Assembly (NCBI GenBank): GCA_001816585.1
Contig: MHCJ01000003.1
Location: 348,228 to 412,227, forward strand
DNA: 64,000 nucleotides
Source of the DNA: Candidatus Chisholmbacteria bacterium RIFCSPHIGHO2_01_FULL_52_32
GTDB taxonomy: Bacteria > Patescibacteriota > Microgenomatia > UBA1400 > Chisholmbacteraceae
Reading direction: 5' to 3'
This document shows positions 944 to 2,144 of this stretch, one piece after another. The position numbers and the translations under genes were made by a program. The notes beneath the pieces were generated by a model. That model did no database searches and was not told the DNA's origin. It saw only the letters and a list, made by a program, of their open reading frames with translations. Within the stretch, counting starts at the first letter, position 1, and each line of letters starts with the position of its first letter.

Positions 944-1022
944 GCTTCGATATTCCTTCGGGTACGGCATTATAACACCATTGCCGCTGTCTGTCTAGAA
1001 ACGAGCTAGAATCCCCACTTGG

Positions 1023-1071
1023 CTGATAGCAGATAGCAGTGGGCGAATAACAGATAGCTGATTGCAGATAG
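1023..1071. repeat. four direct copies of the heptamer CAGATAG/CTGATAG, upstream of the 1..943 gene and downstream of tRNA-Val
   Basis: ctgatag 1023-1029, cagatag 1030-1036, cagatag 1051-1057, cagatag 1065-1071, read directly from the sequence. Confidence 0.6.
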
Positions 1072-1116
1072 TGAAGACCGGAAGCTGGGGATTTGGAGAG
1101 TTTTGATAAAGGAAAG

Positions 1117-1188
1117 TGGGTGCTGCTGGATTCGAACCGGCGACCTGTCCGATGTGAACGGACCGCTCTGCCGCTGAGCTAAGCACCC
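1117..1188 (-). tRNA. tRNA-Val (anticodon CAC), 72 nt, no encoded CCA
   Basis: The reverse complement gggtgcttagctcagcggcagagcggtccgttcacatcggacaggtcgccggttcgaatccagcagcaccca folds as a cloverleaf. It has a 7-bp acceptor stem, D arm GCUC/GAGC, anticodon stem GUCCG/CGGAC with loop UUCACAU (anticodon CAC), variable AGGUC, and a T arm GCCGG-UUCGAAU-CCAGC with one C-A mismatch. Confidence 0.85.
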
Positions 1189-1451
1189 AAAATGAGTTCT
1201 TCTAGGATCCTACGGCTTTTTTGACGTTTGAGCTGATATTCAGTTTGTCTTGCTTCTTTTAAATGTTGGAATTCCCGATGGTAAACCAGTCTCCATGGTC
1301 TCGTAAGGCTGGTATATTTTACCAAACCTAGATTGTGTTCTCGCAATCTCCTTGTAAGATTATTTGTCGAACCGATATAGTATCTAAGGTTCTTCTGGCT
1401 TTGGATGATATAGAGATAACCCTTCATCAAACCATGACCTGTCCGATGCAT
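1179..1451 (-). CDS. small GIY-YIG nuclease-domain protein (UPF0213/YhbQ-like). The likely true start is the internal Met at 1427 (MKGYLYIIQ...). The stop lies inside the tRNA-Val 5' end.
   Basis: The translation carries the GIY-YIG signature: KGYLYIIQSQKNLRYYIGSTNNLTRRLREHN (GIY...YIG...R...E..N), followed by a basic C-terminal tail. About 82-90 aa, typical for stand-alone GIY-YIG proteins. Confidence 0.75.
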   Translation of the reverse strand: MHRTGHGLMKGYLYIIQSQKNLRYYIGSTNNLTRRLREHNLGLVKYTSLTRPWRLVYHREFQHLKEARQTEYQLKRQKSRRILEELILGA

Positions 1452-1481
1452 CGGACCGCTCTACCACTGAGCTACGCGAGC
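1436..1481 (-). other. degenerate 5' tRNA-like fragment (acceptor 5' strand, D arm, anticodon stem); the anticodon loop is collapsed into a 16-nt perfect palindrome
   Basis: The reverse complement gctcgcgtagctcagtggtagagcggtccgatgcatcggacaggtc matches tRNA positions 1-48 (D arm GCUCAGUGGUAGAGC). The anticodon arm is gtccgatgcatcggac with a 6-nt loop, and no T arm or 3' acceptor strand follows. The first ATG of the GIY-YIG ORF sits in this loop. Confidence 0.5.
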
Positions 1482-1502
1482 ATTTCTTTTTAGGCCGATC
1501 CG

Positions 1503-2144
1503 GTGCTATTATATCAACCCTTGTCAGATCACGGAAGGTATCGCATAATCACTCCTATGCACCGTTTAGGGAGATTGTTTCGGATCATCGTCCAGTTTTT
1601 CCTGGATATCGTTGAGACCGTTGTGGTCGGCCTCGCGATGTTTGTGGTCATCTATCTGTTTCTGGTCCAGCCGCACCAGGTGAACGGAAATTCCATGTGG
1701 CCTAATTTCTTGGACGGGGAATACCTGTTAACGGATAAATTTTCCTATCGTCTGCGGGAACCAAAGCGAGGGGATGTCATTATCTTTCTCGCACCTTCCG
1801 GAGCACGCTGTCCCCAGGAGCTTCACTGTGATTTCGTAAAACGGATCATCGGTTTACCTGCGGAACGAGTCGTCATCACAGAGGGAAAGATCTTTATCAA
1901 TGGTACACAACTAACTGAGTCCTATATTCCCAGTGATCCCGGTTTTTTCACCGCCACAACCAATAATTCCTTGGATGTCGTTCTCGGTCCTGAGGACTAC
2001 TTCGTGCTTGGCGATAATCGCGGCCACTCCAGCGATTCCCGCGCTTGGGGTACAGTCCCCCGGGACAATATCGTCGGCCGGGCTTGGTTTCGATATTGGC
2101 CTCCGAAGCGGGTGGGTTTTATTGCTGATGCAGCGTACAGATAG
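1503..2144 (+). CDS. lepB: signal peptidase I
   Basis: Motifs NGNSMWP (Ser box), KRIIGLPAERV (Lys box), YFVLGDNRGHSSDSRAWG, and an N-terminal TM helix. The start could be 1503 or the Met at 1557. Confidence 0.85.
   Translation: MLLYQPLSDHGRYRIITPMHRLGRLFRIIVQFFLDIVETVVVGLAMFVVIYLFLVQPHQVNGNSMWPNFLDGEYLLTDKFSYRLREPKRGDVIIFLAPSGARCPQELHCDFVKRIIGLPAERVVITEGKIFINGTQLTESYIPSDPGFFTATTNNSLDVVLGPEDYFVLGDNRGHSSDSRAWGTVPRDNIVGRAWFRYWPPKRVGFIADAAYR

What the first reader, a model, noticed from the sequence alone, without database searches (positions are those of the whole stretch)
1117..1481. GIY-YIG nuclease gene sandwiched between an intact tRNA-Val and a degenerate 5' tRNA copy; its first ATG lies in the fragment's anticodon loop and its stop in the tRNA
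On the minus strand the order is: a tRNA-like 5' fragment (1481..1436; acceptor 5' strand, D arm, and an anticodon arm turned into the perfect palindrome gtccgatgcatcggac), then an 82-90 aa GIY-YIG protein (1451/1427..1179), then a complete tRNA-Val(CAC) (1188..1117). The ORF's last 10 nt are the first 10 nt of the tRNA. The fragment's acceptor strand (GCUCGCG) cannot pair with the tRNA-Val 3' strand, so this is not a split or intron-containing tRNA but a partial duplicate. This looks like the footprint of an element that inserted at or next to a tRNA gene and carried a GIY-YIG endonuclease, analogous to Seg-type homing endonucleases that live in phage tRNA clusters. Alternatively it is a domesticated stand-alone GIY-YIG (UPF0213-like) whose promoter (ttgatataatag just upstream of the fragment) is a fossil tRNA promoter.
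Basis: partly seen in the sequence, partly recalled or inferred. Interest (0 to 1): 0.65.

Follow-up and report, generated by a model that had tools for sequence, protein, structure and literature searches.

The report
Tiny nuclease gene nested in tRNA
An 82-codon GIY-YIG nuclease gene has inserted into a tRNA-Val gene, leaving a crippled partial tRNA copy marked by a perfect palindrome, and the same layout recurs at about 25 kinds of tRNA gene in many uncultured bacteria, pointing to a selfish element I could not find described.

Summary
On the minus strand there is a 5' tRNA-like fragment (1481..1428) with a 16-bp perfect palindrome replacing the anticodon arm. An 82-aa GIY-YIG ORF follows (1427..1179), then an intact tRNA-Val(CAC) (1188..1117). 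The ORF's stop codon is tRNA positions 8-10.

Orthologous loci in relatives (lepB 73-85% identical) have the same promoter and a tRNA-Val(CAC) but no nuclease gene, so this is an insertion.

The protein is a minimal UPF0213/Slx1-like GIY-YIG, not a Seg/I-TevI-type enzyme.

Among 83 related ORFs in 77 genomes, mostly Patescibacteria:
- 54 directly abut a same-strand tRNA (25 isoacceptors), and 20 stop exactly at tRNA positions 8-10.
- The other side of the ORF usually holds a partial copy of that tRNA carrying a palindrome (YCCGAY...RTCGGR).
- The palindrome type tracks the protein clade.
- It usually ends 9-25 nt before the ATG.

My best reading is a compact selfish element that lives in tRNA genes. 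It borrows the tRNA promoter, a probable ribosome-binding site and a stop codon. How it moves, and what the palindrome does, are inferred only. I found no published description.

The parts
1508..1516 (-). Extended -10 promoter element TGATATAAT, the native tRNA-Val promoter. It probably now drives the fragment, the ORF and the tRNA as one transcript.
   Evidence: The block GACAAGGGTTGATATAAT is conserved in the empty-site relatives L094-L096 directly upstream of their tRNA-Val(CAC) (alignment A3). The -10 to tRNA position 1 distance is 26-27 nt in both the window and L094. The consensus scan did not list it because the -35 is weak. That scan also found no terminator between here and the tRNA.
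1428..1481 (-). 5' tRNA-like fragment: acceptor 5' strand GCTCGCG (1481..1475), D arm (1472..1458), palindrome in place of the anticodon arm (1456..1441), variable loop AGGTC (1440..1436), and a remnant of the T stem and loop ATGGTTTG (1435..1428).
   Evidence: Sequence read. The pattern occurs twice with 0 expected. The local alignment to the tRNA-Val covers tRNA positions 5-57. It is not called as a tRNA by ARAGORN or Rfam. It occupies the slot of the native tRNA relative to the promoter and lepB.
1441..1456 (.). Perfect 16-bp palindrome GTCCGATG|CATCGGAC, the family's hallmark. It replaces tRNA positions 27-43 exactly, with G26 and A44 kept on either side.
   Evidence: It is the only short-centred palindrome of this type in the 64 kb. 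The same motif, (G/T/C)YCCGATG..CATCGGR, sits upstream of related ORFs in L014, L017, L019, L025, L027, L067, L130 and L132. The arm type tracks the protein clade.
1179..1427 (-). GIY-YIG nuclease gene, 82 aa plus the stop codon TAG (1181..1179). It is a minimal UPF0213/Slx1-like type.
   Evidence: PF01541 at E=3e-16. A profile of 30 homologues hits PDB 1zg2 (UPF0213 BH0048) at 1e-19, 1ywl at 3e-14 and SLX1 at 2e-8. Y6, Y16, Y17, G19, R27, H31, E63 and K67 are invariant in 30 homologues, and the homologues start at this ATG.
1117..1188 (-). Intact tRNA-Val(CAC). Its first 10 nt are the last 10 nt of the ORF, and positions 8-10 (TAG) are the stop codon.
   Evidence: ARAGORN; Rfam tRNA at 60.2 bits. 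The same -9 overlap is seen in 20 of 83 related ORFs at other tRNAs.

Best explanation
This locus holds a very compact selfish genetic element: a stand-alone 82-aa GIY-YIG nuclease gene of the UPF0213/Slx1-like type that lives inside tRNA genes.

Shown here:
- The gene and a crippled partial tRNA copy are an insertion in the lepB-proximal tRNA-Val(CAC) locus, which is uninterrupted in relatives.
- The crippled copy sits in the slot of the original tRNA behind the conserved tRNA promoter. The ORF follows it, and an intact tRNA-Val follows the ORF.
- The same design recurs in many lineages at about 25 different tRNA isoacceptors. The intact tRNA lies either just after the ORF (type A, as here) or just before it (type B).
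- The other side of the ORF usually holds a partial copy of that tRNA. Either its anticodon arm is replaced by a clade-specific, almost perfect palindrome, or the palindrome is inserted in its D loop.

Inferred:
1. The ORF brings no expression signals of its own. It is transcribed from the tRNA promoter. It probably uses the AGG of the tRNA variable loop, about 10 nt upstream, as its ribosome-binding site. It ends at the universal T8-A9-G10 of the next tRNA.
2. RNase P cutting at tRNA position 1 would therefore remove the stop codon and limit expression.
3. In type B, 3' processing of the tRNA would leave a nearly leaderless mRNA.
4. The element spreads by nuclease-induced breakage and recombinational copying that uses tRNA sequence as homology. 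This duplicates part of the tRNA, so one working copy always remains.
5. The palindrome is the nuclease's own dyad-symmetric DNA site, bound by a dimer. The ORF junction lies about one to two helical turns from it.

In this window the piece carrying the palindrome has a foreign acceptor strand. As in the closest relatives, the crippled copy and the intact tRNA are therefore not simple duplicates of each other.
For: Insertion:
- L094, L095 and L096 (lepB 85, 74 and 73% identical) carry promoter, leader and tRNA-Val(CAC) with no GIY-YIG (tblastn; alignment A3). L097 (57%) also carries a tRNA-Val(CAC) but no GIY-YIG; its upstream region does not align with the promoter.
- The distance from the lepB start to the tRNA 5' end in L094 (75 nt) equals the distance from lepB to the fragment's 5' end in the window.

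Recurrent design:
- 83 ORFs were found in 77 genome loci. 43 have an intact same-strand tRNA at or just after their end, 10 just before their start, and 1 both.
- 20 stop exactly at tRNA positions 8-10.
- 25 isoacceptors are involved.
- 48 of 80 stop codons are TAG.

Partial copies of the local tRNA lie on the far side of the ORF, often 26 of 26 identical over positions 1-26 and continuing at 44-56.

Palindromes:
- 72 of 83 ORFs have one within 150 nt.
- 95 of 142 palindromes in the loci lie within 150 nt of an ORF.
- The unpaired centre is 0-2 nt in 57 of 115.
- In 33 of 52 cases the palindrome ends 9-25 nt before the ATG. In 7 cases it begins 3-4 nt after the stop.
- Pairs sharing the same arm type are 51% identical in protein, against 41% for other pairs (0 of 2000 permutations reach this). 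The same arm occurs at Ala, Asp, Glu, Gly and Val tRNAs.

Target switching: proteins 74% identical sit at His(GTG) and Arg(TCT). Proteins 69% identical are in type A and type B arrangements at Val(GAC).

Active enzyme: the catalytic-type residues are invariant, and the fold family is supported by PDB hits.

Nested architecture in close relatives: in L130, L039, L044 and L047 the 5' and 3' palindrome pieces flank the ORF plus intact tRNA, and their acceptor strands pair with each other in L130 and L039, where I checked this.

Negative control: 6 distant relatives in viral contigs have no tRNA nearby.
Against: - No mobility, cleavage or binding has been demonstrated. Everything about mechanism is inference from arrangement.
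- The 64-kb window has a single copy and a single palindrome. All sampled contigs of this population are identical. The element could therefore be fixed and inactive, or domesticated, here.
- An 82-aa GIY-YIG domain has no recognisable DNA-binding module.
- The intact tRNA stays in the element-bearing allele. A classical 'cut the empty allele, insertion gives immunity' homing logic does not follow directly.
- The empty-site relatives are fairly distant (lepB 73-85%), so the exact insertion boundaries could not be read.
- The link between palindrome type and protein clade is confounded with host phylogeny.
- The fragment's acceptor strand (GCTCGCG) is unexplained by a simple duplication.
- 29 of 83 relatives do not directly abut a called tRNA. 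About 12 of these have a same-strand tRNA or tRNA-like copy 26-102 nt away.
Confidence: 0.7

Rival explanations
1. Domesticated host gene. The UPF0213-like nuclease is a resident cellular enzyme with a tRNA-linked or DNA-repair job. It is co-transcribed with tRNA genes for regulatory reasons. The partial tRNA copies are old duplication debris, and the gene is no longer (or never was) mobile.
For: UPF0213 proteins are widespread chromosomal proteins whose closest solved relatives are hypothetical proteins of Bacillus and Enterococcus. Catalytic residues are conserved. The locus is 100% identical in all sampled contigs of this population. Only one copy lies in 64 kb. The phylogenomic survey noted a fusion of a Slx1-like domain with a TrmH-type tRNA methyltransferase and suggested an RNA role (PMC1564403).
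Against: The gene is absent from the orthologous locus in relatives. Relatives sit at 25 different isoacceptors in two orientations of the layout, and similar proteins sit at different tRNAs. Debris would decay at random rather than acquire a conserved clade-specific palindrome that replaces positions 27-43 exactly. There are tandem arrays and ORF-less palindrome-bearing tRNA fragments.
Confidence: 0.15
2. The palindrome-bearing tRNA piece works as an RNA. The transcribed tRNA-like fragment is a cofactor, guide or regulator for the nuclease. For example, it could pair with the tRNA gene to create a branched structure that a Slx1-like structure-specific nuclease cuts, or it could bind the protein to control its translation.
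For: The fragment usually matches the local tRNA exactly and is transcribed upstream of the ORF from the tRNA promoter. The nuclease lacks a DNA-binding domain, and its relatives (SLX1) are structure-specific. The palindrome replaces the anticodon arm exactly and keeps G26 and A44.
Against: Half of the palindromes are paired to within 0-2 nt of their centre, which an RNA hairpin cannot use and which selection on RNA would not maintain. The window's 5' leader is not unusually stable as RNA (z=-0.5). In type B the palindrome lies after the ORF. Most type A fragments lack the T arm and the 3' acceptor strand, so they cannot fold like a tRNA.
Confidence: 0.08
3. Remnant of another kind of tRNA-associated element: an intron or split tRNA, or the attachment-site scar of an integrase-type island. 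On this view the GIY-YIG gene is an unrelated passenger.
For: Group I introns are common in Patescibacteria tRNA genes (PMC13011429). Integrative islands typically leave partial tRNA duplicates (established knowledge).
Against: There is no group I or II intron match in 900-1800, even at E<=10. The fragment's acceptor strand cannot pair with the tRNA 3' end. The insert is only about 300 nt and encodes nothing but the nuclease. The duplicated part is the 5' part of the tRNA, not the 3' part that integrases duplicate. No integrase is seen in the related loci inspected.
Confidence: 0.02

Closest known systems
Free-standing GIY-YIG homing endonuclease genes of T-even phages (Seg family; SegB sits in the T4 tRNA gene cluster, PMC2330249)
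   Same: A GIY-YIG nuclease gene outside any intron, placed among tRNA genes. It is present or absent between related genomes, and is thought to spread by a double-strand break followed by co-conversion of flanking tRNA sequence.
   Different: Seg and I-TevI enzymes are about 200-250 aa and carry a C-terminal DNA-binding domain. This one is 82 aa, catalytic domain only, and belongs to the other (Slx1-like) branch. It is cellular, not phage-borne. It overlaps the tRNA, duplicates part of it, and comes with a palindrome.
UPF0213 / prokaryotic Slx1-like minimal GIY-YIG proteins (BH0048, PDB 1zg2; EF2693, PDB 1ywl; described in PMC1564403)
   Same: Same size and sequence family (E=1e-19). It is the minimal GIY-YIG domain with no auxiliary domains.
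   Different: The family's function is unknown, and the papers I could search report no link to tRNA genes, partial tRNA duplication or palindromes.
GIY-YIG ORFs in non-intron insertion sequences of CPR rRNA genes (Tsurumaki et al. 2024, PMC11270868)
   Same: The same group of organisms, with a GIY-YIG ORF sitting inside a structured-RNA gene in an insert that is neither a group I nor a group II intron. Most of those rRNA insertion sequences, of all kinds, lie at the top or base of stem-loops.
   Different: Those are in rRNA genes, and that paper does not mention tRNA. Here the host gene is kept functional by partial duplication rather than by removal of the insert. I did not test whether the proteins are the same subfamily.
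Integrative islands and prophages that target tRNA genes
   Same: They insert in a tRNA gene and leave an intact tRNA plus a partial direct repeat of it.
   Different: Those use a tyrosine or serine integrase and duplicate the 3' part of the tRNA across kilobases of cargo. Here there is no integrase, the cargo is about 250 nt, and the 5' part (type A) or the 3' part (type B) is duplicated.
REP elements with RAYT transposases, and mobile GC-cluster palindromes of fungal mitochondria
   Same: Short, nearly perfect palindromes that multiply locally and are tied to one nuclease-type gene. Solo copies and copies flanked by 3-4 nt repeats are seen in relatives.
   Different: RAYTs are HUH/Y1 enzymes and REPs are spread genome-wide. 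Here the enzyme is a GIY-YIG and the palindromes cluster in tRNA copies beside the ORF. The 64-kb window has only one.
'Fractured genes': host genes split by a free-standing homing endonuclease gene (PMC2677866)
   Same: A selfish nuclease gene sits inside a host gene whose function is nevertheless kept.
   Different: In that case function is rescued by split inteins at the protein level. Here it is rescued by a duplicated tRNA copy.

Membership tests
GIY-YIG nuclease superfamily (Pfam PF01541) | Significant match to the GIY-YIG domain profile above the curated cut-off | tested here: met
   59.8 bits against a cut-off of 22.6, E=3e-16, covering profile positions 1-74 of 78.
GIY-YIG nuclease superfamily (Pfam PF01541) | Conserved catalytic-type residues (the two Tyr of GIY and YIG, Arg, His, and the metal-binding Glu) | tested here: met
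   Y6, Y16, Y17, G19, R27, H31, E63 and K67 are invariant in 30 homologues. Assigning them to catalytic roles rests on established knowledge of I-TevI and UvrC.
UPF0213 / prokaryotic Slx1-like minimal GIY-YIG | Closest sequence relatives are UPF0213 proteins and SLX1 rather than I-TevI or UvrC | tested here: met
   Profile against PDB: 1zg2 at 1e-19, 1ywl at 3e-14, SLX1 from 2e-8 to 1e-6, I-TevI at 2e-4.
UPF0213 / prokaryotic Slx1-like minimal GIY-YIG | Catalytic domain only (about 80-100 aa), with no auxiliary domain | tested here: met
   82 aa. The only other Pfam matches overlap the same stretch (T5orf172 above its cut-off; MUG113 and TetR_C_24 below theirs).
Seg / I-TevI-type homing endonucleases | N-terminal GIY-YIG domain plus linker and C-terminal DNA-binding domain, about 200-250 aa | tested here: not met
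   The protein is 82 aa. TIGR01453 matches only residues 10-39 of the 90-aa ORF, at 21.2 bits against a cut-off of 56.
Seg / I-TevI-type homing endonucleases | Presence/absence polymorphism at a conserved host site | tested here: met
   The orthologous tRNA-Val(CAC) loci L094-L096 lack the gene, as does L097 next to a more distant lepB.
Seg / I-TevI-type homing endonucleases | Site-specific cleavage of the gene-less allele and transfer by repair | not testable with these tools
   Needs enzyme assays or crosses.
Intron-encoded endonuclease (group I or II intron in a tRNA gene) | A ribozyme core flanking the ORF, and exons that join into one tRNA | tested here: not met
   No intron family match in 900-1800 at E<=10. 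The fragment's acceptor strand GCTCGCG cannot pair with AGCACCC.
Integrase-type tRNA-targeting island | An integrase gene and a direct repeat of the tRNA 3' part at the far end | tested here: not met
   The only ORF with a family match between the fragment and the tRNA is the nuclease. The repeat is the 5' part of the tRNA. No 3' fragment lies after the tRNA in the window.
REP/RAYT-like palindrome system | An HUH/Y1 transposase-like gene flanked by palindromes that are dispersed genome-wide | tested here: not met
   The enzyme is a GIY-YIG. There is one palindrome of this type in 64 kb.
Known anti-phage defence proteins (PADLOC) | Significant match to a defence-system protein model | tested here: not met
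   The best match has E=0.007 over 35 residues.

The most novel reading that the evidence does not exclude
These loci may define an unrecognised class of mobile element, made of the smallest known GIY-YIG nuclease (an Slx1-like catalytic domain alone) plus its own short palindromic DNA site. On this reading the enzyme binds the palindrome as a dimer and breaks DNA one to two helical turns away, inside a tRNA gene copy. The ORF is copied into the break, and the process duplicates part of the tRNA so the host keeps a working gene. The element is expressed entirely from borrowed tRNA signals. The palindromes can also multiply alone as 17-19 nt insertions. This would give the large UPF0213 protein family its first function.
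Probability: 0.35. Interest if true: 0.85.

Novelty: new variant of a known kind. Interest (0 to 1): 0.72.

Why it matters
- It would assign a biological role, as a selfish tRNA-gene resident, to at least one branch of the UPF0213/Slx1-like proteins, whose function is unknown.
- It shows how a gene of about 250 nt can persist with no signals of its own, using a tRNA gene's promoter, a probable ribosome-binding site in the variable loop, and the universal T8-A9-G10 as its stop codon.
- It explains a source of tRNA annotation errors. Palindrome-bearing tRNA copies are called tRNA-Ile(tat) or 'tRNA-???' by ARAGORN. Partial copies go unannotated. Gene callers pick the wrong start codon inside the palindrome.
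- Many relatives lie near contig ends, which may mean these repeats break assemblies in small-genome bacteria. I did not test this.
- A tiny nuclease with a defined 16-18 bp dyad site, if confirmed, would interest enzymologists.

Tried and rejected
- Second intact tRNA at 1436-1490: not found by ARAGORN, nor by Rfam at E<=10.
- Group I or II intron, or split tRNA: no ribozyme match and incompatible acceptor strands.
- Start codon at 1451: rejected. The N-terminal 8 aa have no counterpart in any homologue.
- Genome-wide repeat: the palindrome occurs once in the window. The other five hits of a loose search have 8-27 nt centres, one lies inside a 369-aa ORF, and all are near chance level (shuffles average 1.6).
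- Other tRNA remnants in the window: GGTTCGAATCC-like matches are at chance level.
- Defence-system or phage origin: no significant PADLOC hit and only weak PHROG endonuclease hits. Only six weak viral relatives exist, none near a tRNA.
- Structured RNA leader: the fold of 1495..1405 is no better than shuffles (z=-0.5).
- G:U versus A:C mismatch test, to tell an RNA-level from a DNA-level palindrome: uninformative. It mostly picked up the conserved G26/A44 flank.
- Orthology of L019, which has a similar fragment acceptor GATCGCG, with the window locus: no lepB or neighbouring gene was found near any other GIY-YIG locus.
- Terminal inverted repeats around the ORF: in the window there is no palindrome half-site at the ORF's 3' end.
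- Literature: nine searches and three papers read. None describes this arrangement. The library lacks most subscription journals, so prior description cannot be excluded.
Full report
**1. The observation**

- ARAGORN finds one tRNA in the whole window, tRNA-Val(CAC) at 1116-1188. Rfam's tRNA model scores 60.2 bits at 1117-1188.
- The ORF 1451..1179 matches Pfam GIY-YIG at E=3e-16 over residues 10-80.
- Its stop codon TAG (1181..1179) is tRNA positions 8-10, so ORF and tRNA share 10 nt.
- Upstream, 1481..1428 reads GCTCGCG-TA-GCTCAGTGGTAGAGC-G-GTCCGATGCATCGGAC-AGGTC-ATGGTTTG. That is an acceptor 5' strand, a D arm, a perfect 16-bp palindrome where the anticodon arm should be, a variable loop and the start of a T arm.
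- No tRNA is called there, even at E<=10.
- The 23-nt D-arm/anticodon-stem pattern occurs only at the tRNA and at the fragment, with 0 expected by chance. A local alignment with the tRNA-Val spans tRNA positions 5-57.
- All 29 database homologues begin at the second ATG (MKGYLY, 1427). The protein is therefore 82 aa, and the ATG at 1451 is just the CCGATG half of the palindrome.
- Ten independent metagenome contigs are 100% identical over 511 nt, and an eleventh differs only at a run of N, so this is not an assembly artefact.

**2. It is an insertion**

I searched metagenomes with the divergently transcribed neighbour lepB (1557-2144, plus strand).

- Four loci with lepB 85, 74, 73 and 57% identical (L094-L097) carry a tRNA-Val(CAC) in the same place and orientation, with no GIY-YIG gene.
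- The block GACAAGGGTTGATATAAT, an extended -10 promoter, is conserved between the window and L094-L096.
- In the empty loci the order is promoter, 26-27 nt leader, tRNA. In the window it is promoter, 26 nt leader, fragment, ORF, tRNA.
- The fragment therefore sits in the slot of the native tRNA.
- No terminator-like site lies between the promoter and the tRNA.

**3. The protein family**

- A profile of 30 homologues hits the solved UPF0213 proteins BH0048 (1zg2, E=1e-19) and EF2693 (1ywl, 3e-14). It then hits eukaryotic SLX1 (2e-8), and I-TevI only at 2e-4.
- The model for group I intron endonucleases (TIGR01453) reaches 21 bits against a cut-off of 56.
- The protein is thus the minimal 'prokaryotic Slx1-like' GIY-YIG of Dunin-Horkawicz et al. 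(PMC1564403). It is not a Seg/I-TevI-type enzyme, because it has no DNA-binding domain.
- Y6, Y16, Y17, G19, R27, H31, E63 and K67 are invariant across homologues that are 36-67% identical. This indicates an active enzyme under selection.

**4. The locus is one member of a recurrent design**

A scan of one genome per species returned 77 loci, mostly Patescibacteria. The rest include Bacteroidota, Omnitrophota, Elusimicrobia, Verrucomicrobiota and others. ARAGORN plus ORF tracing gave the following.

- There are 83 ORFs.
- 43 have an intact same-strand tRNA at or within 20 nt of their end (type A, as in the window).
- 10 begin between 3 nt before and 11 nt after a tRNA 3' end (type B), and 1 does both.
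- About 12 more have a same-strand tRNA or tRNA-like copy 26-102 nt away.
- 20 ORFs stop exactly at tRNA positions 8-10. Others stop at the TAG of the D stem.
- 25 isoacceptors are involved.
- Six distant relatives in viral contigs have no tRNA nearby, which serves as a negative control.

On the far side of the ORF there is usually a partial copy of the same tRNA.

- In type A it covers positions 1-26 plus 44 to about 56, often identical to the intact tRNA. Alternatively it covers positions 1 to about 25.
- In type B it runs from the D loop to position 76.

**5. The palindrome is the family hallmark**

- In the partial copies the anticodon arm (positions 27-43) is replaced exactly by a palindrome, with G26 and A44 kept. 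Examples are GTCCGATG-nn-CATCGGAC, TCCCGATG-nn-CATCGGGA and CCCCGCCATGGCGGGG.
- Alternatively a palindrome is inserted in the D loop, flanked by 3-4 nt repeats (TCAA, TAGA).
- Of 115 palindromes near the ORFs, stems are 6-10 bp (mostly 7-9) and 57 have an unpaired centre of only 0-2 nt. That is typical of a dyad-symmetric DNA site rather than an RNA hairpin.
- They concentrate at the ORFs. 95 of 142 lie within 150 nt of one.
- Spacing is regular. 33 of 52 upstream palindromes end 9-25 nt before the ATG, whether they sit in the D loop or at the anticodon position. Seven downstream ones begin 3-4 nt after the stop.
- Arm sequence follows the protein clade. Pairs with the same arm are 51% identical in protein, against 41% for other pairs, and 0 of 2000 permutations reach this. 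Arm sequence does not follow tRNA identity, since CCGATG arms occur at Ala, Asp, Glu, Gly and Val. Host phylogeny is a possible confound here.
- Some palindromes lie further away. Many sit in ORF-less tRNA fragments, sometimes in tandem (L020, L062, L065). A few are solo 17-19 nt insertions in other DNA.
- In the window the palindrome occurs only once.

**6. Signs of movement**

- Proteins 74% identical sit at His(GTG) and Arg(TCT). Proteins 64-66% identical sit at Arg and Lys, or at Gly and Ala.
- Proteins 69% identical are found in type A and type B layouts at Val(GAC).
- L014 has two different copies at neighbouring tRNAs.
- L037 has three tandem units.

**7. What is special about the window's copy**

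- Its fragment acceptor (GCTCGCG) differs from the intact tRNA's (GGGTGCT). This also holds for its closest relatives.
- In L130 (68% identical protein) the 5' fragment (GGAGCCA...) pairs with a 3' fragment that follows the intact tRNA-Val (...TGGCTCC). The two palindrome-bearing pieces are therefore halves of one tRNA, split by the ORF plus a different intact tRNA.
- L039 shows the same pairing of fragment acceptors. L044 and L047 also have a 3' palindrome-bearing fragment after the intact tRNA, and in L044 its variable and T region matches the upstream fragment rather than the intact tRNA. L132 shows the acceptor mismatch.
- The window has no 3' fragment after its tRNA.
- The intact tRNA-Val has the anticodon stem GTCCG/CGGAC, identical to the palindrome stem. 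The empty-site relatives have TCGCA/TGCGA or TTGCA/TGCAA. This suggests exchange between the two copies, but I cannot show it.

**8. How it most likely works**

Shown:
- It is an insertion.
- The layout is family-wide.
- The palindrome is linked to the ORF.
- The nuclease motifs are intact.

Inferred:
- The ORF is expressed from the tRNA promoter.
- The variable-loop AGG (1439..1438, about 10 nt before the ATG) serves as the ribosome-binding site.
- The tRNA's T8-A9-G10 supplies the stop codon.
- RNase P processing at 1188 would cut off the stop codon and so limit expression.
- In type B, tRNA 3' processing would leave a nearly leaderless mRNA.
- Spread is by a nuclease-made break, repaired by copying from an element-bearing template using tRNA homology. 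This duplicates part of the tRNA and always leaves one working copy.
- The palindrome is the enzyme's own symmetric site.

A weakness of any simple homing model is that an intact tRNA remains in the element-bearing allele. How self-cleavage is avoided is not explained.

**9. Rivals**

- A domesticated host gene is possible for this particular fixed copy. It does not explain the absence in orthologous loci, the 25 targets, or the conserved palindromes.
- An RNA role for the fragment is disfavoured by the palindromes that pair right to the centre and by an unremarkable fold.
- An intron or an integrase scar is excluded.

**10. Comparison with what is known**

The closest functional analogue is a free-standing GIY-YIG homing endonuclease gene such as T4 segB in its tRNA cluster (PMC2330249). 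That membership fails on domain architecture. By sequence the protein is a UPF0213/Slx1-like protein. In CPR bacteria, GIY-YIG ORFs are known in non-intron inserts of rRNA genes (PMC11270868). Nine literature searches found no description of GIY-YIG genes nested in tRNA genes with palindrome-marked partial duplicates. The library lacks most subscription journals.

I rate it a new variant of a known kind (a selfish nuclease gene at tRNA genes), with a real chance that it is a new class of element.

Noticed in passing
window 1117-1188 (-), compared with L094-L097: The intact tRNA-Val(CAC) has the anticodon stem GTCCG/CGGAC, the same as the stem of the neighbouring palindrome. The tRNA-Val(CAC) of the empty-site relatives has TCGCA/TGCGA or TTGCA/TGCAA. 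Its T stem also has a C51-A63 mismatch (GCCGG/CCAGC), whereas the fragment keeps TGG. This suggests sequence exchange between the two copies, or a junction in the T loop.
   Followed up: partly
L037 1887-3477; L042; L022 2252-2326: Full-length tRNA copies whose anticodon arm is a palindrome are called by ARAGORN as tRNA-Ile(tat) or as 'tRNA-???'. L037 (Prolixibacteraceae) has three tandem units of GIY-YIG gene plus palindrome-bearing tRNA, with a period of 566 nt.
   Followed up: partly
L014 3397-3681: A second, different GIY-YIG gene (42% identical in tblastn) lies right after tRNA-Ala. It again stops at positions 8-10 of the next tRNA (Phe). The original gene call there was a 140-aa ORF on the opposite strand, which is probably spurious.
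   Followed up: partly
L072 3239-3257; L027 2072-2088; L050 184-198; L014 1107-1123: Solo 15-19 nt palindromes of the same type (for example ACCCCGATTAAATCGGGGT) occur in DNA with no tRNA similarity, as if the palindrome can insert on its own.
   Followed up: no
L020 1545-1860; L062 1720-1860; L065 about 40-130; L054 1785-1841: ORF-less partial tRNA copies carrying the palindrome, some in tandem, lie upstream of the intact tRNA. They may be deletion derivatives or products of repeated events.
   Followed up: partly
window about 1025-1075 (-): Repeated GCTATCTG and ATCAGC motifs lie between the tRNA-Val and a strong promoter-like site (997..969, TAGACA-17-TATAAT with TG) of the next gene, a 494-aa protein with no Pfam match.
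   Followed up: no
window 1179-1451 (-); P0001: Public gene calls use the upstream ATG inside the palindrome and give a 90-aa product. Homologues show that the 82-aa form is the real one.
   Followed up: yes
L016-L092: Many of the related loci lie at or near contig ends, and many hits are on very short contigs. This fits repeated tRNA/ORF units breaking metagenome assemblies.
   Followed up: no
L018, L025, L027, L038, L043, L045, L050, L058, L061, L072, L074, L079: Several MAGs titled 'uncultured Gammaproteobacteria' or 'Pseudomonadales' carry elements most like those of Patescibacteria. The record titles may be unreliable taxonomic labels.
   Followed up: no
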